Source of the DNA: Candidatus Uhrbacteria bacterium GW2011_GWE2_46_68
GTDB taxonomy: Bacteria > Patescibacteriota > Patescibacteriia > UBA9934 > GWF2-40-263
NCBI GenBank assembly: GCA_001002765.1
Contig: LCMS01000001.1
Location: 4,662-68,661 of the forward strand
Direction of reading: 5' to 3'
Length of the DNA: 64,000 bases
Every line of letters starts with the position of its first letter. The stretch's first letter is position 1. A model generated the notes under the pieces. The model saw only the letters and a program-made list of their open reading frames with translations, was not told where the DNA came from and ran no database searches. The translations under genes were made by a program, and so were the position numbers. Below, one piece after another: positions 7,456 to 52,597 of this stretch.

Positions 7456-7537
7456 TTTAATCAAAAAATAGAACATAAACAAATCCCTCCGAAGTCCACG
7501 CCGATGGCGGGGAAGAAGGGGGGGATTCTGTTTCAAA

Positions 7538-7590
7538 AGGGGCGAACGGCCGTTTTGTACGGTAGGGGCGAACGGCCGTTCGCCCCTACC
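7538..7590. repeat. GC-rich perfect palindrome ggtaggggcgaacggccgttcgcccctacc with an adjacent half-copy
   Basis: The 30-nt self-complementary sequence was read directly; it belongs to a family of six copies. Confidence 0.9.
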
Positions 7591-7616
7591 TTAGCCAAAA
7601 AGCGACCGTGATGGCC

Positions 7617-7645
7617 TTGACAAAATGACGTTTTTTTGTTATAGT
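7617..7645 (+). promoter_or_regulatory. near-consensus sigma70 promoter TTGACA-N17-TATAGT
   Basis: ttgaca at 7617-7622, a 17-nt spacer, then tatagt at 7640-7645. Confidence 0.6.
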
Positions 7646-7651
7646 AGGACG

Positions 7652-7809
7652 TTCAGAATTTGGCAAAAGTACACGGATTTGCGCCATGTTTACAAGGATA
7701 ATGCTTGCGAAGACCTGTTACGAAGCGGGTTTAGCCGGCAACACACGAGGGTGAGAGTAGGGAATCCAAAGGGATTTCCATATCCACACCCTCAAACGGG
7801 TGTTTTTTC
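7652..7809 (+). ncRNA. candidate structured RNA (sRNA or riboswitch-like leader) ending in an intrinsic terminator
   Basis: About 160 nt between the consensus promoter and the terminator acaccc-tcaaac-gggtgt-TTTTTT. An alternative helix gagggtg (7747-7753) with caccctc (7787-7793) overlaps the terminator 5' arm. No ORF is present. Confidence 0.4.
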
Positions 7810-7810
7810 A

Positions 7811-7862
7811 TAATTTCCAATCCCTTCATTCATTAGAAATTGGAAATTAGTAATTGGAAATT
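7811..7862. repeat. AT-rich palindromic repeat (aatttccaat ... attagaaattggaaattagtaattggaaattt), copy R5
   Basis: Near-identical to 32637-32682 and the inverse of 31933-31975 and 32566-32610. Confidence 0.8.
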
Positions 7863-9857: not shown

Positions 9858-9966
9858 CCGTTCCGTTCGTCTCCGTTCCTACGTTATACGCGAGCCCCTT
9901 GTCTTTGTTCACACTTCGGTGTGTTCATTGACCAGGGGCTCTTGTTGTTTTCAAGGTTGATGATCC

Positions 9967-10018
9967 GGTAGGGGCGAACGGCCGTTCGCCCCTACCGTAC
10001 CGGCCGTTCGCCCCTACG
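9967..10018. repeat. GC-rich palindrome copy P2 plus a half-copy
   Basis: ggtaggggcgaacggccgttcgcccctacc followed by gtaccggccgttcgcccctacg. Confidence 0.9.
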
Positions 10019-13026: not shown

Positions 13027-13221
13027 GGGGTCAGGTCCGGACATCGGACTTTTTGGAGAGACAATGAAAATTTAACGCATTTTTTACTTTTTTTAGAAGA
13101 TATTCATCACTTTTTTATCCATCAATGCATTAAAACTGAAAAAATATAAGGAGCATTTTCCTCAAAATAAGAGAAGTATTTTTGATCTTTCTTGAAAAAG
13201 TCCGATGTCCGGACCTGACCC
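13027..13221. mobile_element. MITE-like element (195 bp) with 28-bp perfect terminal inverted repeats GGGGTCAGGTCCGGACATCGGACTTTTT
   Basis: TIRs read directly and the interior is AT-rich and non-coding. It shares the outer GGGGTCAGGTC with the element at 52441-52597. Confidence 0.55.
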
Positions 13222-13260
13222 CACAACCCGATTTGTTTTGTGCTACAATACACTTAAGAT

Positions 13261-17231: not shown

Positions 17232-17326
17232 AAAACAGGTTATATTAGCAAAAAATAGGCATTTTGTCAATCGTTTGAGGTGGATAACATCAAAAAATAA
17301 GGGGAAAAGCCCATGTTTTTCAATAC

Positions 17327-17376
17327 GGTAGGGGCGAACGGCCGTCTGTAGGGGCGAACGGCCGTTCGCCCCTACG
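17327..17376. repeat. GC-rich palindrome copy P3 (a half-copy plus a full copy) in a divergent promoter region
   Basis: ggtaggggcgaacggccgtc followed by tgtaggggcgaacggccgttcgcccctacg. Confidence 0.9.
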
Positions 17377-30633: not shown

Positions 30634-30854
30634 AAGGCGGTTTTATTTTTCCAATCGAGCGGCAAGAGACCTTAAAACGCGTTTTACCTTGCGTCTGCTC
30701 ATGCGAATACAAACACGACGAATGGCTTTATCAAGACTTGCATCCTCCTTTTGCCTGGCTGACCAAGAAAGTGTGAGAGGATAGTAACGAAGGGAAAGAG
30801 TAGACATAGAGTTTTTTTTGGGATTCTTTTGATCAGACGAACGGTTGTGTGTCC

Positions 30855-30884
30855 GGTAGGGGCGAAGGGCCCTTCGCCCCTACC
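30855..30884. repeat. GC palindrome variant P4 (ggtaggggcgaagggcccttcgcccctacc)
   Basis: A perfect palindrome whose centre differs from the other copies by compensatory substitutions. Confidence 0.9.
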
Positions 30885-30969
30885 GTTTGTTCCATACAGA
30901 GACAGAAAGGACATCGTGATCAAAAGAATCATTAAGAATGAAAAGACAAGAGGAGCGTAGGGAAGATGT

Positions 30970-31251
30970 ATGAAGGTTGTTGATGGAGGGGAAAGAACGA
31001 TTTTTTATAAAGAAGACCCTGAAGCCCCTCTTGTCTTGGCACATTATTGTGAAAGGACAAACAGAAACATGATTGTTTTCTCCACCTATTACTTTTACAA
31101 TATAAAAGACGTCGGATCCGCAAGGATAAGGTGTCATACAAGGACGTTGATCAATGTCTTGCCAGACATCAACGTCCTTTGGTTTTTTGGTAGGACTTAC
31201 GTGTTTGGATGCAGAACGAGGAAAAACCGAGGCTTTTTGCGAGGCGTATGA
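30970..31251 (+). CDS. hypothetical protein (93 aa). It is ambiguous with an antisense 139-aa ORF at 30880-31299 that would sit 12 bp downstream of lexA
   Basis: ggaag RBS-like sequence upstream; only one of the two overlapping ORFs can be real. Confidence 0.25.
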   Translation: MKVVDGGERTIFYKEDPEAPLVLAHYCERTNRNMIVFSTYYFYNIKDVGSARIRCHTRTLINVLPDINVLWFFGRTYVFGCRTRKNRGFLRGV

Positions 31252-31310
31252 GACATACGTTGAGTAAAAAATGCAGGTTTTGACAAAGTTATGCGCCAAA
31301 CACGTAAGTC

Positions 31311-31931
31311 CTACACTGGCCTAAACTTACGAATCACTGCACGGACAACTCCTTGAATAATGCAATCTTTAACATAAATAGGCTGCATGGTGCTATTGGC
31401 CGGCTGGAGACGAATACGATTTTGCTCGCGATAAAAACGTTTGAGTGTGGCATAGGCATTATCAAGAAGCGCCACTACGACCTCGCCATTTTTTGGTGAA
31501 GGATTACGCTCTACCACCACAAAATCTCCATCTAAGATGCCATCCTCAATCATAGACTGACCTTTGACACGCAAGACATACGAATTGGCGCCATCCACCA
31601 CAAAGGTGGTGGGGACAGCCATGGTTTCGCGATCTTCTACGGCCTCGATAGGCTCGCCGGCTGTAATGAGTCCGGATAAAGGGAGCAAAACAGCATAAGC
31701 GGTTTGGGCAGATTCGTCCTTGATAAGCTCAATGGACCGCGCCTCGCCACCTTCACCCATGGTGATCGCGTTTTTTTCAAGAAGCGCTTTGACATGTTGA
31801 TGAACCGTAGCGGGGGAGGAAAGACCAAGAGAATCCGCAATCTCCCGATAACTTGGCGCATACCCATGCTCGGAAAAATAGGTGCGAATAAAGTGCAAAA
31901 CCTCGGCTTGTTTTTTTGTGAGAGAGTTCAT
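31311..31931 (-). CDS. lexA: LexA repressor (S24 peptidase)
   Basis: N-terminal winged HTH (GYAPSYREIADSLGLSSPATVHQHVKAL), an Ala-Gly cleavage site (ITAGEP) and the serine motif GQSMIEDGILDGDFVVVE; start trimmed to MNSLTKKQ. Confidence 0.8.
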   Translation of the reverse strand: MNSLTKKQAEVLHFIRTYFSEHGYAPSYREIADSLGLSSPATVHQHVKALLEKNAITMGEGGEARSIELIKDESAQTAYAVLLPLSGLITAGEPIEAVEDRETMAVPTTFVVDGANSYVLRVKGQSMIEDGILDGDFVVVERNPSPKNGEVVVALLDNAYATLKRFYREQNRIRLQPANSTMQPIYVKDCIIQGVVRAVIRKFRPV

Positions 31932-31932
31932 A

Positions 31933-31975
31933 AGATTCAAGAATTTCCAATTTCTAATATCTAATTTCCAATGAA
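31933..31975. repeat. AT-rich repeat R1 (agaatttccaatttctaatatctaatttccaatg) immediately upstream of the lexA start
   Basis: Family member; the inverse orientation of R4 and R5. Confidence 0.75.
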
Positions 31976-31992
31976 GGAAAAAGATAGATATT

Positions 31993-32364
31993 TTAAGAAA
32001 AAGTTTGAATTGAGTAATTCGGATTATTTTTTGTTTTTTGAATGATAGCATGAAGAATAAGATGAATTTCTTTTACTTCCTGCCATAATTTCTGGATGGA
32101 TTCATTCTGTTCTGGTTGGGCAACCGATACCATCTTTAGCCAATATTTTGTTTCCTCGGCTTCCTTTTTGGCAATAAAGAATTTATGGATGAAATCTTTC
32201 CTCGAAGACGCATTATCAGCTTCACAATAGTTAGCACCTACACTTGTACCAGATTTAACAAGTTGTGAAATAAGAGGTTTTGAAATGATGTTTTGGGGAA
32301 CCTTCTTAACGAATTCTATGATATTTTTTCCAAATTCATTTGTTCGACTTTTGATGTCATACAT
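31993..32364 (-). CDS. four-helix-bundle protein (23S rRNA intervening-sequence protein family, TIGR02436-like)
   Basis: GKNIIEFVKKVP...QLVKSGTSVGANYCEADNASSRKDFIHKFFIAKKEAEETKYWL matches the family signature. Confidence 0.7.
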   Translation of the reverse strand: MYDIKSRTNEFGKNIIEFVKKVPQNIISKPLISQLVKSGTSVGANYCEADNASSRKDFIHKFFIAKKEAEETKYWLKMVSVAQPEQNESIQKLWQEVKEIHLILHAIIQKTKNNPNYSIQTFS

Positions 32365-32418
32365 AGATTTCCTTCATTATCCGACGGAGCCAGATCCGGC
32401 TTTGCCGGAGAAATTAGG

Positions 32419-32447
32419 AATTGGAAATTAGAAATTTTTGTTTTGTG
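32419..32447. repeat. AT-rich repeat R2 (agaaattaggaattggaaattagaaattt)
   Basis: Family member with a ccggctttgccgg hairpin just upstream. Confidence 0.7.
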
Positions 32448-32495
32448 TTCGTTGTTTGTTCGTATTTATAATAGAGCGAACAAAATACGAACACA
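32444..32495. promoter_or_regulatory. 19-bp inverted repeat (TGTGTTCGTTGTTTGTTCG / CGAACAAAATACGAACACA) bracketing a perfect TATAAT; a candidate operator-promoter
   Basis: Read directly. It lies about 80 bp upstream of the 4HB-lexA transcription unit on the minus strand and about 190 bp upstream of metK on the plus strand. The arms contain GTTCG/CGAAC motifs. Confidence 0.5.
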
Positions 32496-32565
32496 AGAGT
32501 CTATCTGTGGATAACATATCATCTGGAAGAAGGGGTGAAATCTTGGTACGCTTCCAGCGGATTAT

Positions 32566-32610
32566 TAAGAGAATTTCCAATTTCTAATGTCTAATTTCTA
32601 ATGTAGGCGC
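32566..32610. repeat. AT-rich repeat R3 (gagaatttccaatttctaatgtctaatttctaatg)
   Basis: About 90% identical to R1. Confidence 0.75.
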
Positions 32611-32636
32611 CTATCGGCGATATTTGAAATAAATAT

Positions 32637-32682
32637 CCCCATTCATTAGAAATTAGTAATTGGTAATTGGAAATTTTTATCT
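32637..32682. repeat. AT-rich repeat R4 (ccccattcattagaaattagtaattggtaattggaaattt)
   Basis: About 85% identical to R5 at 7811-7862. Confidence 0.8.
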
Positions 32683-32686
32683 CATT

Positions 32687-33745
32687 ATGCCCAAAGTCGT
32701 TGAATCGGTTTTAGCCGGACAGCCCGACAAAGTCTGCGATCAAATCGCAGATGCGATTGTGGATGAATATCTTCGTCGTGATCCTGACGCGTCCGTTGAC
32801 CTTCATGTTATGGGTTCTCATGGCATGATGATGATCGGGGGCGAAGTTCATTCCAAGGCCGACTTTGATCTTTCCGAACTTGCCAAACAGGTTTATCAAA
32901 AAATCGGTTATACCGATGACGTTGAAGTGTTTGTAAATATTGATCAACCTTCCTCTGAAATGCAGCTTCTGGATCGTCATCTCCCCGGTGACACCGTGGT
33001 TGTAAACGGTTACGCCACACTCGAGACAAGGGAACGTTTACCGCGAGCGCTTGTGTATGCTCATGATATGGCAAGGAGACTTGATAATCTCCGCAAAACC
33101 GATCCGGCATTTGGCTGGCTCCAACCCGACGGAAAAGTCCAGGTCATGGTGTGGAAAAGTGAAGTGAAGGCTGTAACCATTCTGGCTTCTCATGCCAAAG
33201 ACGTGGAACTCAAGACTGTACAAAGCGCGCTTTTGGATCGTGTGATTGTACCGATTGTGGGCGAAGAAGGTGTGCAGATTTTTATCAACCCCATTGGACC
33301 GTTTACTATTCACGGATTTTCCGCAGATTCAGGAGCCAGCGGCCGCAAACTTGCTGTGGATACCTATGGAGCTCTGATCCCTCATGGTGATCACACATTG
33401 TCTGGCAAAGATCCCATGAAGGCCGAGCGCGCGGGGACCTATATGGCACGTTATGTGGCACGTTGGCTTGTAGAGCGGGAACTCGCGGAAAGTGCCTTGG
33501 TGACGATCGCCTACACTATGGGGCGATCCGAACCTTTGCTTATCAAAGCTCAAGGAACGGCGACAAAATCTCGCGGAGTCAGGATGGATCTTTCCAATGT
33601 GATCAAACGTGAATTTGATTTTCGACCCGAGGCCATTGTGGATCGTCTCGAACTCAAACAGCCTATTTATGAGCAAACGGCTGTGTACGGACATTTTGGA
33701 AGAACCGGATTTCCTTGGGAAAAGAAAATCGAAAAAACAGGGTGA
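32687..33745 (+). CDS. metK: S-adenosylmethionine synthetase
   Basis: ESVLAGQPDKVCDQIADAIVDEY (compare GHPDK) and HGDHTLSGKDPMKAERAGTYMARYVARWLV (compare [26 protein letters not shown]). Confidence 0.8.
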   Translation: MPKVVESVLAGQPDKVCDQIADAIVDEYLRRDPDASVDLHVMGSHGMMMIGGEVHSKADFDLSELAKQVYQKIGYTDDVEVFVNIDQPSSEMQLLDRHLPGDTVVVNGYATLETRERLPRALVYAHDMARRLDNLRKTDPAFGWLQPDGKVQVMVWKSEVKAVTILASHAKDVELKTVQSALLDRVIVPIVGEEGVQIFINPIGPFTIHGFSADSGASGRKLAVDTYGALIPHGDHTLSGKDPMKAERAGTYMARYVARWLVERELAESALVTIAYTMGRSEPLLIKAQGTATKSRGVRMDLSNVIKREFDFRPEAIVDRLELKQPIYEQTAVYGHFGRTGFPWEKKIEKTG

Positions 33746-33758
33746 TTCCCTGTTTTTA
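33733..33758 (+). terminator. Rho-independent terminator for metK (aaaaaacagggtgattccctgttttt)
   Basis: The stop codon lies in the loop. A near-identical copy occurs at 34221. Confidence 0.7.
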
Positions 33759-33969
33759 AGGGGGTTTCACCCCCTTGCCCCCTCTCCGCTTTTCTTTGGC
33801 CTGCAAAGAAAAGCGGAAGAAAAGAAACAGGCCGCCCGCCTGCGCTCGCCAGGCCACCTTTGGCACCGCGAGCCTTGGCTGTGGAACGTCGCTTGCCTCC
33901 TGCGGCTGACAGAAAAATGTAACGGTCAGCCTTGGAGGCTTCGCTCAAACAATCCTCGCCACAACAAGC

Positions 33970-34154
33970 CTATAGTTATCACATCATGAAACAGGATTTA
34001 TTCATCCGCAATGATGGCGGTCTGCTTGTCCTTCGCACAGAAAAATCCTCAATGTATCTACGGATACATCTGCGGTTTTCCTGTGCTGCAGGACGGCGCA
34101 TCCCATCCATCCTTGCGGCGTCTAAAGTCCCGTTTCATGATGTGATAACTATAG
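33970..34154. mobile_element. MITE-like element (185 bp) with 23-bp perfect terminal inverted repeats CTATAGTTATCACATCATGAAAC
   Basis: Read directly. The interior is GC-rich and hairpin-rich, and no gene-like ORF is present. Confidence 0.45.
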
Positions 34155-34220
34155 CTTGTTGTCGGCTCACTTGTGCCAAGGTGGCTCTGACGTGCTCGGA
34201 GGGCGGGATAAAGATCAGAT

Positions 34221-34269
34221 AAAAACAGGGTGATGCCCTGTTTTTTTGTATGTAGGGGTGAACGGCCGC
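34221..34269. terminator. bidirectional terminator (aaaaacagggtgatgccctgttttttt) plus a degenerate GC palindrome P5 (gtaggggtgaacggccgctcacccctta)
   Basis: The hairpin with T-runs on both strands serves the convergent minus-strand RNase J-like gene. Confidence 0.65.
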
Positions 34270-34294
34270 TCACCCCTTATATGACCTATAAGAC

Positions 34295-35787: not shown

Positions 35788-37497
35788 ATGATAACAGTGC
35801 AAGTTATGACGCAAGAACAATTTCACGAAGCGTTAGTGGAACATGGCACCATAACCGAAGATCAGTTTCAATCCGTGATAGACAGTCGTGAGGCAAAGGA
35901 GGCGGGTATAGGAGAAGCCTTGGTGGTACGAGGTGTGATCAGTGAGTCTCAACTCGGTCAAATGTTAGCCTGGTGGTACAAGGTGCCTTATTTTGATTTT
36001 GGAAAAGAAGGTGTTGATCATGAGATTACACGTTTGTTGCCAGAATCTTTTGTGCGCGAACAACGGGTGATTCCCGTTTCTCATCATGAGCAAGAAGGGT
36101 TCAAGGTCGCCACATCTGATCCGAAAAATATAGTCCTGCGTTGTTTGCTCGAAAAATATCTTCGTGATCGTGTGCAATTTGTGTTTGCGACCGACCGTCA
36201 AATTGCGGGGCATCTTTATCTTTTTCAGCAAAATCTCGGAGAAACAATCAAAAAGATTCTGAAACAACCTGCAGTTTTCGGAAACGCGACCGATACAAAG
36301 GCCGTCACCATTACTGACACTCTCATCAGTTTTGCCTATCAGACGGGTGTTTCCGATATTCATTTGGAATCAGGGGAAAAGATTACCATGGTGCGTTTCC
36401 GTGTGGATGGCGTTTTACATGATATGGCGGAAATCCCCCCCGAGATTCATCAAGCCGTGATTTCTCGTCTCAAGGTTATGGCCCGTCTTCCCACCGATGA
36501 AACCCGCAAAACCCAAGACGGTAAGATTTTATTTCAATCTCCTTGGCATGATGCCGTGGATATTCGTTTATCTCTCGTCCCAACAACACATGCGGAAAAT
36601 GCAGTTCTGCGTTTGCTCACAGACCGTAATAAGAATTTTTCTTTTCATGATATCGGTCTTCGTGAGCGTGATGGGGAAAAGGTTTTAAATGCCTCTCATC
36701 AACCCTGGGGCATGATTTTGGTTGCCGGTCCCACAGGTTCGGGAAAAACAACAACGCTTTACAGTGTGCTCAAGATGCTTAATGATCGTGATATTCATAT
36801 CGTGACCATTGAGGATCCCGTAGAGTATGACATGAAAGGCGTGACGCAAATTCAGGTGAATGAAAAAGTCGGTTTGACCTTTGCCAGCGGTCTACGTTCC
36901 ATTGTGCGCCAAGACCCTGACATTATTATGGTAGGAGAGATCCGCGATCGGGAAACCGCAGGTATTGCCATTAATGCCGCCATGACAGGACATTTGGTTT
37001 TATCCACCATTCATACCAATGATGCGGCCACGACTTTTGTCCGACTCGTCGATATGGGGGCGGAGGATTATCTTTTGGCATCCACCATCAACGTGGTGAT
37101 TGCACAAAGACTTATTCGACGCATTTGTCTCGGATGTATTCAGAGTGTATTTTTGACGCCATCACAAATACAAATTATCGAACGCATTCCCAAAGCCAAG
37201 GAATATCTTTTGAATATAAGCGAAAAGCAAAATCTTTCCGATGTACGTTTGTTTGCGGGGAAAGGGTGTCAGGCATGTCACCAAACGGGGTATAAAGATC
37301 GCGTGGGCATTTTCGAAGTGCTGGATGTAACCGAGAGAATTCGTCAAGGAATCATGGAAAGGAAGGAAGCAGAGACAATCAAAGAAATAGCTTTAAACGA
37401 TGGAATGACGACTATGCTACAAGACGGTTTTAACAAAGCTTTAGTCGGATTGACGACCATAGAGGAGGTACTTCATGAAACACAGACCACTTCATGA
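35788..37497 (+). CDS. pilB: type IV pilus assembly ATPase PilB/GspE family
   Basis: GspII_E N-terminal domain, Walker A VAGPTGSGKTT and a C-terminal tetracysteine (CLGC...CQAC). Confidence 0.85.
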   Translation: MITVQVMTQEQFHEALVEHGTITEDQFQSVIDSREAKEAGIGEALVVRGVISESQLGQMLAWWYKVPYFDFGKEGVDHEITRLLPESFVREQRVIPVSHHEQEGFKVATSDPKNIVLRCLLEKYLRDRVQFVFATDRQIAGHLYLFQQNLGETIKKILKQPAVFGNATDTKAVTITDTLISFAYQTGVSDIHLESGEKITMVRFRVDGVLHDMAEIPPEIHQAVISRLKVMARLPTDETRKTQDGKILFQSPWHDAVDIRLSLVPTTHAENAVLRLLTDRNKNFSFHDIGLRERDGEKVLNASHQPWGMILVAGPTGSGKTTTLYSVLKMLNDRDIHIVTIEDPVEYDMKGVTQIQVNEKVGLTFASGLRSIVRQDPDIIMVGEIRDRETAGIAINAAMTGHLVLSTIHTNDAATTFVRLVDMGAEDYLLASTINVVIAQRLIRRICLGCIQSVFLTPSQIQIIERIPKAKEYLLNISEKQNLSDVRLFAGKGCQACHQTGYKDRVGIFEVLDVTERIRQGIMERKEAETIKEIALNDGMTTMLQDGFNKALVGLTTIEEVLHETQTTS

Positions 37498-52440: not shown

Positions 52441-52597
52441 GGGGTCAGGTCTTTACCTTTTACCTTATATTTTACCTTGTACAAAATTTTCACTCTTTTT
52501 TGAGAAGAAACCCTATACAATGACAGATATTTTTCAGATATTTTTGTTTATTTAAAGCCAAAATATTGGATGGGGTAAAAGGTAAAGACCTGACCCC
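52441..52597. mobile_element. MITE-like element (157 bp) with 24-bp terminal inverted repeats GGGGTCAGGTCTTTACCTTTTACC
   Basis: Read directly. It lies between the convergent pilX-like and pilin genes and shares the outer GGGGTCAGGTC with 13027-13221. A half-site tggggtcaggtcg occurs at 55821. Confidence 0.5.

What the first reader, a model, noticed from the sequence alone, without database searches (positions are those of the whole stretch)
32444..32495. Inverted-repeat operator bracketing a perfect TATAAT between the 4HB-lexA unit and metK
The 19-bp arms TGTGTTCGTTGTTTGTTCG and CGAACAAAATACGAACACA match at 17 of 19 positions. They flank tatttaTAATagag, which contains a consensus -10 box. The element lies about 80 bp upstream of the four-helix-bundle gene. 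That gene is followed 62 bp later by lexA on the same strand, so the two likely form a 4HB-lexA operon. The element also lies about 190 bp upstream of metK on the other strand. A dyad overlapping the -10 box is the classic layout of a repressor operator. Because LexA autoregulates, this is a plausible LexA box for this lineage. The arms are rich in GTTCG/CGAAC motifs. The 4HB 'IVS protein' family has no known function, so co-transcription with lexA would be notable.
Basis: partly seen in the sequence, partly recalled or inferred. Interest (0 to 1): 0.6.

Follow-up and report, generated by a model that had tools for sequence, protein, structure and literature searches.

The report
lexA promoter-operator with inserted gene cassette
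The inverted repeat is the conserved self-regulating promoter and operator of the DNA-damage repressor gene lexA in a Candidatus Uhrbacteria genome, an ordinary kind of element, and the small four-helix-bundle gene next to it is a hairpin-bounded cassette that landed in the lexA leader rather than a conserved operon partner.

Summary
The dyad exists exactly as described: 18/20 complementary arms at 32443-32462 and 32477-32496, with a 14-nt spacer. Nothing comparable appeared in 60 simulated sequences.

Each arm is a GTTC-N7-GTTC direct repeat. Most of 80 related Patescibacteria genomes keep this element upstream of lexA. There it is built into a promoter: invariant TTG (-35), 17 nt holding one box, TAnnAT (-10), and a second box over the start site. 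The arms do not co-vary. The element stays with lexA where metK is not adjacent. LexA is intact.

It is therefore best read as a LexA autoregulatory operator of the known direct-repeat class.

- The "perfect TATAAT" lies on the metK strand and is absent from a near-identical strain. The conserved -10 is TATTAT on the lexA strand.
- The 4HB-lexA pairing is sporadic.

The 4HB gene lies inside a cassette bounded by inverted arrays of 7-nt repeats, which fold into a long stem. lexA flanks are a hot spot for such cassettes (4HB, GxxExxY, IS200). All 22 found in 575 kb lie beside lexA on its strand.

No other LexA box occurs in about 81 kb of this genome, so the regulon is untested.

The parts
31311..31931 (-). 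lexA coding sequence (206 aa), with Ala91-Gly92 cleavage site, Ser126 and Lys164
   Evidence: Pfam LexA_DNA_bind plus Peptidase_S24. TIGR00498 equivalog at 184.5 bits. Alignment to E. coli LexA keeps the AG site, the GxSM serine and the KR lysine.
31938..31975 (-). lexA-proximal arm of the cassette: an inverted array of 7-nt units (AATTTCC x4.4), ending 6 nt before the lexA ATG
   Evidence: the repeat finder I2/I3. TRF period 7. Pairs with 32409-32440 in the RNA fold.
31993..32364 (-). Four-helix-bundle gene (123 aa, '23S rRNA intervening sequence protein' family), the cargo of the cassette. It has its own AAGGA ribosome-binding site.
   Evidence: PF05635 at 8.6e-17. TIGR02436 at 1.5e-23. An identical protein is annotated 'four helix bundle protein [Candidatus Uhrbacteria]'.
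32409..32440 (-). Promoter-proximal arm of the cassette (AGAAATT x4), starting about 4 nt after the operator
32447..32461 (-). LexA box 2 (GTTCGTTGTTTGTTC on the + strand, GAAC-N7-GAAC in the lexA direction). It lies downstream of the -10 and over the inferred transcription start.
   Evidence: Exact GTTC-N7-GTTC. PWM score 23.4. GAAC blocks are invariant in 37 aligned promoters.
32468..32473 (-). Inferred -10 hexamer of the lexA promoter (TATTAT), 17 nt after the -35
   Evidence: It aligns with the conserved TAnnAT, in which T, A and A, T are invariant or nearly so. A close strain has TATGAT at the same place. The simple scanner did not call it.
32467..32472 (+). It is strain-specific.
   Evidence: It is absent in L207/L208, where the spacer is CCTTATGATGGATA. 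It is absent in relatives with the 10-nt spacer.
32478..32492 (-). LexA box 1 (GTTCGTATTTTGTTC in the lexA direction), filling the -35/-10 spacer
   Evidence: PWM score 23.3.
32491..32496 (-). Inferred -35 (TTGTGT). The TTG is invariant in relatives, whose consensus is TTGCGT.
   Evidence: Inferred from conservation, because only 3/6 positions match TTGACA.
32506..32514 (-). Perfect DnaA-box 9-mer TTATCCACA, 9 nt upstream of the -35
   Evidence: In relatives, 56 of 64 such 9-mers lie within 800 nt upstream of lexA, in 54 of 80 loci. There are 7 in the window against 0.42 expected.
32570..32678 (+). 'Empty' copy of the same 7-nt-repeat hairpin element, ending 8 nt before the metK ATG
   Evidence: the repeat finder I1, D1 and D3. 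RNA fold -42.1 kcal/mol, z = -6.6. TRF period 7.
32687..33745 (+). metK, the divergent neighbour, conserved next to lexA in the closer relatives
   Evidence: tblastn across the loci.
31190..31314 (.). Hairpin with perfect 19-nt arms overlapping the lexA stop codon. It opens a hairpin-rich noncoding stretch of about 670 bp downstream of lexA.
   Evidence: The ORFs there have no Pfam match.

Best explanation
The dyad at 32443-32496 is the autoregulated promoter-operator of lexA in a Candidatus Uhrbacteria (Patescibacteria) genome.

Read on the lexA (-) strand, the layout is:
- DnaA-box-like TTATCCACA, then 9 nt
- TTGTGT (-35)
- a 17-nt spacer holding LexA box 1 (GTTC-N7-GTTC)
- TATTAT (-10)
- LexA box 2, the same repeat inverted, lying over the transcription start

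Inferred mechanism:
1. One LexA dimer binds each direct repeat. Together the two dimers block RNA polymerase binding or escape.
2. After DNA damage, RecA-stimulated self-cleavage of LexA at Ala91-Gly92 (catalysed by Ser126 and Lys164) frees the promoter.
3. The resulting transcript first carries a cassette of about 500 nt and only then lexA. The cassette is a promoterless four-helix-bundle gene bounded by inverted arrays of 7-nt repeats. These arms pair into a stem of about 30 bp, which juxtaposes the 5' end and the lexA start.
4. The stem may be cut by a double-strand RNase, as happens with 23S rRNA intervening sequences.

The cassette is a secondary, sporadic insertion, not an ancestral operon partner.

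What is shown: the anatomy, the conservation, the specificity for lexA, the absence of hairpin covariation, the intact LexA, and the predicted pairing of the cassette arms.

What is inferred: LexA binding, the start site, co-transcription and RNA processing.
For: - **Match to the class.** Exact GTTC-N7-GTTC occurs only twice in the 64 kb, and both copies are the dyad arms. This matches the direct-repeat LexA motif class quoted in PMC8565304. PMC7739468 cites the Patescibacteria study (pmid 28618189) among the direct-repeat cases.
- **Conservation at lexA.** Of 80 lexA loci from related MAGs, about 68 carry the repeat upstream of lexA. About 40 carry the full dyad.
- **Promoter architecture.** An alignment of 37 promoters gives TTATCCACA-n9-cTTGCGTTCGnTTTTTGTTCGGTnTATAATACGAACATAAAGCGAACA. 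The TTG, all four GTTC/GAAC blocks and TA..AT are invariant.
- **Specificity.** The PWM finds only 5 sites outside lexA promoters in 575 kb of flanking DNA, and none elsewhere in the window.
- **Linked to lexA, not metK.** The element stays with lexA in lineages where metK is not adjacent.
- **Not a hairpin.** There is no compensatory variation between the arms: covariation score 0.056 against 0.054 in shuffles.
- **Functional repressor.** LexA is an equivalog-level match with its cleavage and catalytic residues present.
- **Same module elsewhere.** The -35, box, -10 arrangement precedes a second promoter in L045. In metagenome contigs it precedes a 4HB gene, a small unknown protein, and a weak Rad51-like gene followed by a family-B DNA polymerase gene.
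- **Cassette.** Inverted arms, period-7 arrays, arms pair in the fold (z = -4.3). The scan finds no terminator-like or promoter-like site between 4HB and lexA. In 46 of 71 relatives the leader is at most 55 nt.
Against: - No LexA-DNA binding data exist for this organism.
- I could not read the 2017 Patescibacteria paper, so identity with its published motif is not verified.
- No second box occurs in about 81 kb of this genome. That stretch holds no recA or uvr gene; recJ is there but has no box. The regulon criterion is therefore untested.
- The -35 matches TTGACA at only 3/6 positions, and the consensus promoter scanner does not call this promoter.
- The window's inter-arm spacer is 4 bp longer than in most relatives. 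This shifts box 2 relative to the -10, with unknown effect.
- The metagenome contigs that carry the box before a polymerase operon are of unknown taxonomy.
Confidence: 0.85

Rival explanations
1. The operator is bidirectional in this strain. The symmetric TTGTGT...ACACAA ends and the + strand TATAAT create a second, face-to-face promoter. LexA would then also repress a long-leader metK transcript.
For: On the + strand, TTGTGT (32443-32448), an 18-nt spacer and TATAAT (32467-72) can be read. metK is the conserved divergent neighbour, and the intergenic region is as short as 107-160 bp in relatives. The metK leader carries the same hairpin element.
Against: The + strand TATAAT is missing in a strain whose 4HB is 98% identical and in all relatives with the 10-nt spacer. 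In relatives the outer flank of box 2 is not conserved as a -35 (columns 41-44/91-94 are unpaired). Relatives show candidate metK -10 elements (TAAAAT) close to the metK ATG instead.
Confidence: 0.15
2. The dyad is the operator of some other repressor, for example one that controls metK in response to S-adenosylmethionine, and not of LexA.
For: It lies in a shared divergent intergenic region. No binding experiment ties it to LexA.
Against: The repeat follows lexA where metK is absent from the neighbourhood (L042-L080). Box 1 sits between the -35 and -10 and box 2 just downstream of the -10, both on the lexA strand. GTTC-N7-GTTC is a documented LexA motif class (PMC8565304). No SAM riboswitch or other Rfam family is present.
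Confidence: 0.05
3. The dyad acts as a nucleic-acid hairpin. It could be an RNA terminator or attenuator, or a DNA hairpin that serves as end or target of the neighbouring cassette. In this reading it is not a protein-binding site.
For: Arms of 20 nt could fold. The cassette begins 4 nt away. IS200-type elements, which use DNA hairpins, occur in the same position in L048.
Against: There is no covariation, and variable positions are mostly unpaired. The dyad is present and conserved in the many genomes without any cassette. The loop holds the conserved -10. Distant relatives keep one arm only.
Confidence: 0.03
4. 4HB and lexA form a selected, functional SOS unit. In this reading the four-helix-bundle protein has a damage-related role, and that is why it is repeatedly kept in the lexA transcript.
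For: All 15 4HB genes found in 575 kb of relatives' DNA plus the window lie next to lexA on its strand, either upstream or downstream. An independent metagenome contig has the box promoter followed directly by a 4HB gene. One homolog sits just after ruvA.
Against: The association is sporadic, at about 19% of species, and its position varies. The window's 4HB is closer (60-63% identity) to 4HBs at unrelated sites in other genomes than to the 4HB at the same site in L013 (51%). Unrelated cargo (GxxExxY, IS200 transposase) uses the same sites. Empty hairpins are common there too. This pattern fits a landing pad for selfish cassettes.
Confidence: 0.2

Closest known systems
Direct-repeat LexA boxes: GTTC-N7-GTTC of Alphaproteobacteria, and the direct-repeat LexA motif reported for Patescibacteria (Sanchez-Osuna, Barbe & Erill 2017, pmid 28618189)
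   Same: Both share the tetramer and spacing (GTTC-N7-GTTC) and a location in the lexA promoter itself (autoregulation). Both occur one or two copies per promoter. The organism belongs to the superphylum treated in the 2017 study.
   Different: Here two copies are arranged as an inverted pair that brackets the -10. This makes the element look like a 20-nt palindrome. I could not read the 2017 paper, so identity of the motif is presumed, not checked. The window's spacer is 4 bp longer than the clade consensus.
Classical palindromic SOS boxes overlapping promoters (E. coli CTGT-N8-ACAG; Gram-positive CGAAC-N4-GTTCG)
   Same: In both cases the repressor sites lie within or next to the -35/-10 of lexA. 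The LexA protein has the same domain structure and self-cleavage residues.
   Different: The half-site arrangement is direct, not palindromic. The GAAC-N4-GTTC sequences in this window belong to a REP-like palindrome at three unrelated places.
23S (and CPR 16S/23S) rRNA intervening sequences that encode a PF05635 protein (PMC11270868)
   Same: Both have a PF05635 ORF enclosed by long inverted repeats that form an extended stem in the host transcript. Both are promoterless and co-oriented with the host gene.
   Different: The host transcript here is an mRNA leader (lexA), not rRNA. The arms are arrays of 7-nt repeats whose sequence differs from genome to genome. Excision by RNase III is untested.
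REP/REPIN-type hairpin elements with Y1 (IS200/RAYT) transposases, and heptanucleotide repeat arrays such as intergenic TAACTGA repeats of Beggiatoaceae (PMC4679880)
   Same: These are short intergenic hairpin or heptamer-repeat elements, multi-copy and species-specific in sequence. A Y1 transposase gene is present in this genome, and one sits in the lexA leader of L048.
   Different: No link between the Y1 enzymes and these particular arms has been shown. The heptamer arrays here are paired as inverted arms and can carry a gene.

Membership tests
LexA operator (SOS box), direct-repeat class | Matches the class consensus GTTC-N7-GTTC | tested here: met
   There are two exact matches at 32447-32461 (+) and 32478-32492 (-), the only ones in 64 kb. 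The consensus is as quoted in PMC8565304.
LexA operator (SOS box), direct-repeat class | Lies in the promoter of lexA (autoregulation), overlapping the -35/-10/+1 | tested here: met
   Box 1 lies in the 17-nt spacer and box 2 after the -10. The layout is conserved in 37 aligned promoters. Promoter hexamers are inferred from conservation and were not called by the scanner.
LexA operator (SOS box), direct-repeat class | Conserved at orthologous lexA promoters and specific to them | tested here: met
   About 68 of 80 loci carry the repeat upstream of lexA. Only 5 PWM hits lie elsewhere in 575 kb.
LexA operator (SOS box), direct-repeat class | A cognate LexA with a DNA-binding domain and a self-cleaving S24 domain | tested here: met
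   (Ala91-Gly92, Ser126, Lys164).
LexA operator (SOS box), direct-repeat class | The same motif upstream of other DNA-damage genes of the genome (regulon) | tested here: inconclusive
   No further site occurs in the window plus 17 kb of extra contig. No recA, uvr or dinB gene lies there either. Elsewhere the box-in-promoter module precedes a family-B polymerase operon, a 4HB gene and small unknown genes, on contigs of unknown or related taxa.
LexA operator (SOS box), direct-repeat class | Bound by LexA in vitro or in vivo | not testable with these tools
   This needs EMSA, footprinting or ChIP.
Conserved 4HB-lexA operon | Same strand, short gap, no intervening terminator or promoter | tested here: met
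   The gap is 61 nt. No terminator-like or promoter-like site lies between the genes.
Conserved 4HB-lexA operon | Gene pair conserved across related genomes | tested here: not met
   Counting the window and the 80 loci, 4HB lies between operator and lexA in 8 of 81 and after lexA in 7, and is absent in most. The close relatives L001-L012 lack it.
rRNA intervening sequence (IVS) element | Encodes a PF05635 / TIGR02436 protein | tested here: met
rRNA intervening sequence (IVS) element | ORF enclosed by inverted repeats that form a long stem in the transcript | tested here: met
   Arms 31938-31975 and 32409-32440. They pair in the MFE and centroid folds.
rRNA intervening sequence (IVS) element | Inserted in a helix of 23S or 16S rRNA | tested here: not met
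   It lies between the lexA promoter and lexA. The window has no Rfam rRNA match.
rRNA intervening sequence (IVS) element | Excised from the transcript by RNase III | not testable with these tools
   This needs RNA end mapping or in vitro cleavage.
Diversity-generating retroelement accessory protein (Avd) | Adjacent reverse transcriptase and template/variable repeats | tested here: not met
   The neighbours are lexA, metK and a beta-CASP nuclease. The only RVT-type hit on the contig is RNase H/RVT_3, about 25 kb away.
DnaA box | Perfect 9-mer TTATCCACA, conserved in position | tested here: met
   It lies at 32506-32514. 54 of 80 relatives have one within 800 nt upstream of lexA. Binding by DnaA was not tested.

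The most novel reading that the evidence does not exclude
In Patescibacteria the LexA-controlled lexA transcription unit, both leader and trailer, is a preferred landing site for promoterless, hairpin-bounded single-gene cassettes. The cargo includes four-helix-bundle 'IVS' proteins, GxxExxY nucleases and IS200-type transposases. The arms are often species-specific arrays of 7-nt repeats. These cassettes would then be expressed under SOS control. That would give the first regulatory clue to the function or spread of the non-DGR PF05635 family, for example damage-induced expression or mobilisation, possibly through single-stranded hairpin intermediates.
Probability: 0.3. Interest if true: 0.6.

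Novelty: new member of a known kind. Interest (0 to 1): 0.4.

Why it matters
The operator itself extends a known rule, that LexA represses its own promoter through a lineage-specific motif, to one more uncultivated lineage. It supplies a clean 37-genome promoter alignment that could seed a regulon search in Uhrbacteria.

Three points are less expected:
1. A perfect DnaA box sits next to the lexA promoter in two thirds of the related genomes. This hints at a link between replication status and SOS control.
2. lexA is flanked repeatedly, and apparently through independent insertions, by IVS-type cassettes.
3. The cassette arms are arrays of 7-nt repeats whose sequence differs from genome to genome.

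If the cassette enrichment is real, it gives a handle on a large protein family of unknown function and on how such cassettes move.

Tried and rejected
- **2017 Patescibacteria SOS paper.** Reading pmid 28618189 failed because it is not held. Further literature searches gave only citations of it.
- **Consensus promoter/terminator scan** of 31800-32800. It called neither the lexA promoter nor any terminator, so the promoter rests on conservation.
- **Rfam.** Nothing reached gathering score in the whole window. With relaxed thresholds only meaningless miRNA-precursor hairpin matches appeared, with no SAM riboswitch before metK.
- **Loose motif searches in the window.** TGTTCG-N6-GTTCG with 2 mismatches gave fewer hits than chance. 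The count of GTTC-N7-GTTC alone is not significant: 2 found against 2.8 expected.
- **Metagenome scan with one arm** (GTTCGNTTTTTGTTCG).
- **Classical Gram-positive box.** GAAC-N4-GTTC occurs 4 times. Three of these are one REP-like palindrome, GGGGCGAACGGCCGTTCGCCCC, unrelated to lexA.
- **Hairpin hypothesis for the dyad.** Rejected on covariation counts.
- **DUF559 'cassette' in L042.** It turned out to be the C-terminal domain of a long divergent ORF, not a cassette.
- **Walking off both ends of the window.** This gave 17 kb more of the genome, with no SOS genes and no boxes.
- **First RNA-folding script.** It timed out and was rerun.

Full report
**1. Observation**

The element is present as described.
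- The repeat finder reports arms at 32443-32462 and 32477-32496, 20 nt each, 90% complementary, 14 nt apart (I9).
- The flanking genes are lexA (31311-31931, -), a PF05635 four-helix-bundle gene (31993-32364, -) and metK (32687-33745, +).
- Inverted repeats this tight did not occur in any of 60 Markov-simulated copies of the window. The window does contain a few other tight palindromes.

**2. Anatomy of the dyad**

Each arm is itself a direct repeat, GTTC-N7-GTTC. The two arms are the only exact instances in the 64 kb. GTTC-N7-GTTC is the direct-repeat LexA motif quoted for Alphaproteobacteria (PMC8565304). The Patescibacteria SOS study (pmid 28618189) is cited among the cases where LexA evolved a direct-repeat motif (PMC7739468). 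I could not obtain that paper.

**3. Comparative evidence**

A scan of one genome per species with the LexA protein returned 80 loci. All are Patescibacteria MAGs, many labelled Uhrbacteria, with LexA 61-80% identical.
- About 68 of them carry GTTC-N7-GTTC upstream of lexA. About 40 carry the full inverted pair.
- Aligning 37 promoters gives TTATCCACA-n9-cTTGCGTTCGnTTTTTGTTCGGTnTATAATACGAACATAAAGCGAACA. The invariant columns are TTG, the four GTTC/GAAC blocks, and the T-A...A-T of the hexamer between the arms.

This is a sigma-70-type promoter read in the lexA direction. The -35 is TTGCGT and a 17-nt spacer is filled by box 1. The -10 is TAnnAT, and box 2 lies over the expected start.

More distant relatives have TTGACC followed by a single GTTCTAtTTTTGTTCTAT. 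The recognition unit is therefore the direct repeat, not the palindrome.

A PWM built from 111 arms scores the two window arms at 23.3 and 23.4, and nothing else in the window above 12.8. In 575 kb of relatives' flanks only five sites fall outside lexA promoters.

metK is the divergent neighbour only in the closer relatives. The box stays with lexA in the others.

The arms show no compensatory variation: covariation score 0.056 against 0.054 ± 0.004 in shuffles, and variable positions are mostly unpaired. The symmetry therefore reflects two sequence-specific sites, not a hairpin.

LexA is an equivalog-level match. Its alignment to E. coli LexA keeps the Ala-Gly cleavage site, the serine and the lysine.

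**4. What is particular to this window**

On the lexA strand the promoter reads TTGTGT (32496-32491), 17 nt, TATTAT (32473-32468). The spacer between the boxes is 14 nt instead of the usual 10.

Two metagenome contigs from a strain whose 4HB protein is 98% identical share the 14-nt length. Their spacer reads CCTTATGATGGATA. This keeps a lexA-strand TATGAT and has no + strand TATAAT.

The 'perfect -10' is thus strain-specific and on the wrong strand for lexA. A face-to-face metK promoter in this strain remains possible but unsupported by conservation. The simple promoter scanner calls neither promoter.

**5. The 4HB gene is a cassette in the lexA leader**

The gene is bracketed by inverted arms at 31938-31975 and 32409-32440. 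Each arm is about four copies of a 7-nt unit, AATTTCY.
- In a fold of the leader the arms pair into a closing stem of about 30 bp (z = -4.3).
- A second, 'empty' copy of the element (32570-32678, z = -6.6) ends 8 nt before the metK ATG.
- A partial third copy is at 7813-7862.
- These are the only period-7 arrays in the window.

In relatives the distance from operator to the lexA ATG falls into three classes:

| Leader length | Loci (of 71) | Content |
|---|---|---|
| 55 nt or less | 46 | none |
| 62-226 nt | 15 | mostly strongly structured hairpins, several with 7-nt-periodic arms that differ in sequence between genomes |
| 445-716 nt | 10 | cassette-sized insert (4HB, GxxExxY or IS200 gene where identified) |

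An iterative HMM search of all ORFs in the 80 loci and the window finds 15 4HB genes. All are on the lexA strand and next to lexA: 8 between operator and lexA, and 7 just after lexA. A broader model with E up to 1 finds no more.

Other inverted-repeat-bounded inserts at the same places carry different cargo:
- GxxExxY genes (TIGR04256, six copies)
- one IS200/IS605 transposase

Long inverted repeats are 5- to 10-fold denser just upstream and just downstream of lexA than in the rest of the loci. The window shows the same pattern downstream of lexA.

Seen from the 4HB side, homologs 58-63% identical sit between ruvA and a Mur ligase gene, before rplJL, between def and fmt, and between two giant genes. 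They are always co-oriented with their neighbours and are flanked by 7- or 9-nt-periodic AT-rich repeats. The 4HB at the same site in L013 is only 51% identical.

Together this indicates promoterless, mobile or at least repeatedly acquired cassettes that ride on host transcripts. It does not indicate a conserved 4HB-lexA operon.

Co-transcription with lexA is nevertheless likely here, because the only conserved promoter is upstream and the scan finds no terminator-like site in between. PF05635 ORFs are known inside rRNA insertions of CPR bacteria (PMC11270868). This is the same kind of element in an mRNA leader.

**6. Regulon**

The window and 17 kb of extra contig belong to GCA_003506835.1, Candidatus Uhrbacteria. 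They hold no further box and no recA, uvr or dinB gene. recJ lies in the window without a box.

Elsewhere the same box-in-promoter module appears in several places:
- before a second promoter followed by a heptamer hairpin in L045
- before a 4HB gene, with a DnaA box, in L152
- before homologous 73-88-aa unknown proteins in L105 and L183
- before a weak Rad51-like gene plus a family-B DNA polymerase gene in L102, L106 and L153

This is suggestive of SOS-type regulation but is not a regulon test for this genome.

**7. Verdict**

The dyad is a LexA autoregulatory promoter-operator of the direct-repeat class (confidence about 0.85). It is a new member of a known kind.

The TATAAT and 'operon' details are not.

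The more interesting residue has two parts. One is the enrichment of hairpin-bounded cassettes at lexA. The other is the conserved perfect DnaA box 9 nt upstream of the -35, found in 54 of 80 relatives. Both are recorded as leads.

Noticed in passing
window 32506-32514 (-); also 21547, 35740, 42447, 53242, 58793, 60122: A perfect DnaA-box 9-mer, TTATCCACA, sits 9 nt upstream of the lexA -35. In relatives, 56 of 64 such 9-mers lie within 800 nt upstream of lexA, in 54 of 80 loci. The window has 7 copies against 0.42 expected. One of them lies 11 nt upstream of a TTTGGC-17-TATAAT promoter before the T2SSE/PilB gene at 35788.
   Followed up: partly
window 32570-32678 (+): An 'empty' hairpin made of the same 7-nt repeats as the 4HB cassette arms ends 8 nt before the metK start codon (fold z = -6.6). 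Similar species-specific heptamer hairpins occur in the metK leaders of several relatives (L008, L011, L019).
   Followed up: partly
window 7617-7862: A strong promoter-like TTGACA-17-TATAGT (7617-7646) is followed by a stretch of about 150 nt ending in a terminator-like stem plus T-run (about 7785-7810). After that comes a partial third copy of the heptamer element (7813-7862). It may be a small RNA. There is no Rfam match.
   Followed up: partly
window 7536-7593, 9962-10000, 17326-17367: A REP-like GC-rich palindrome, GGGGCGAACGGCCGTTCGCCCC, is present three times. It contains GAAC-N4-GTTC, the Gram-positive LexA box core, but is unrelated to lexA promoters in this clade.
   Followed up: partly
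window 33746-34294: A noncoding insert of about 550 bp lies between metK and the beta-CASP nuclease gene. It is flanked by two copies of a terminator-like hairpin (33732-33758 and 34220-34246) and contains an inverted repeat with 48-nt arms (33970-34154). In the close strain L207 the two genes are only 39 nt apart.
   Followed up: partly
window 30640-31314: About 670 bp downstream of lexA has no ORF with a Pfam match and is packed with inverted repeats. These include perfect 19-nt arms overlapping the lexA stop codon and a perfect 32-nt palindrome at 30854-30885.
   Followed up: partly
L048, L049, L050, L051, L052, L056 (lexA flanks): Inverted-repeat-bounded inserts next to lexA carry GxxExxY (TIGR04256) genes or an IS200/IS605 transposase instead of 4HB. 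All are on the lexA strand, and none occur elsewhere in the 80 loci.
   Followed up: partly
L105, L183; L102, L106, L153 (metagenome contigs): The -35, GTTCG-N6-GTTCG, -10 promoter module precedes a family of 73-88-aa proteins with no database match. In GC-richer contigs it precedes a 206-219-aa weakly Rad51-like protein followed by a family-B DNA polymerase gene.
   Followed up: partly
window 32380-32408 vs L207: A small stem-loop between the cassette arm and the 4HB ribosome-binding site differs between strains by paired changes (CCGGC...GCCGG versus CCCGCC...GGCGGG). This suggests a conserved structure.
   Followed up: no
window 13027-13222 and 52441-52597: Two inverted-repeat elements share the terminus GGGGTCAGGTC (arms 45 and 24 nt, loops about 106-109 nt). 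They look like a small MITE-like family.
   Followed up: no
L210 12908-13786 (same genome, beyond the window end): A 292-aa Y1_Tnp (IS200/RAYT-like) gene lies about 2 kb past the window end. It is a candidate enzyme for mobilising the genome's hairpin elements.
   Followed up: no
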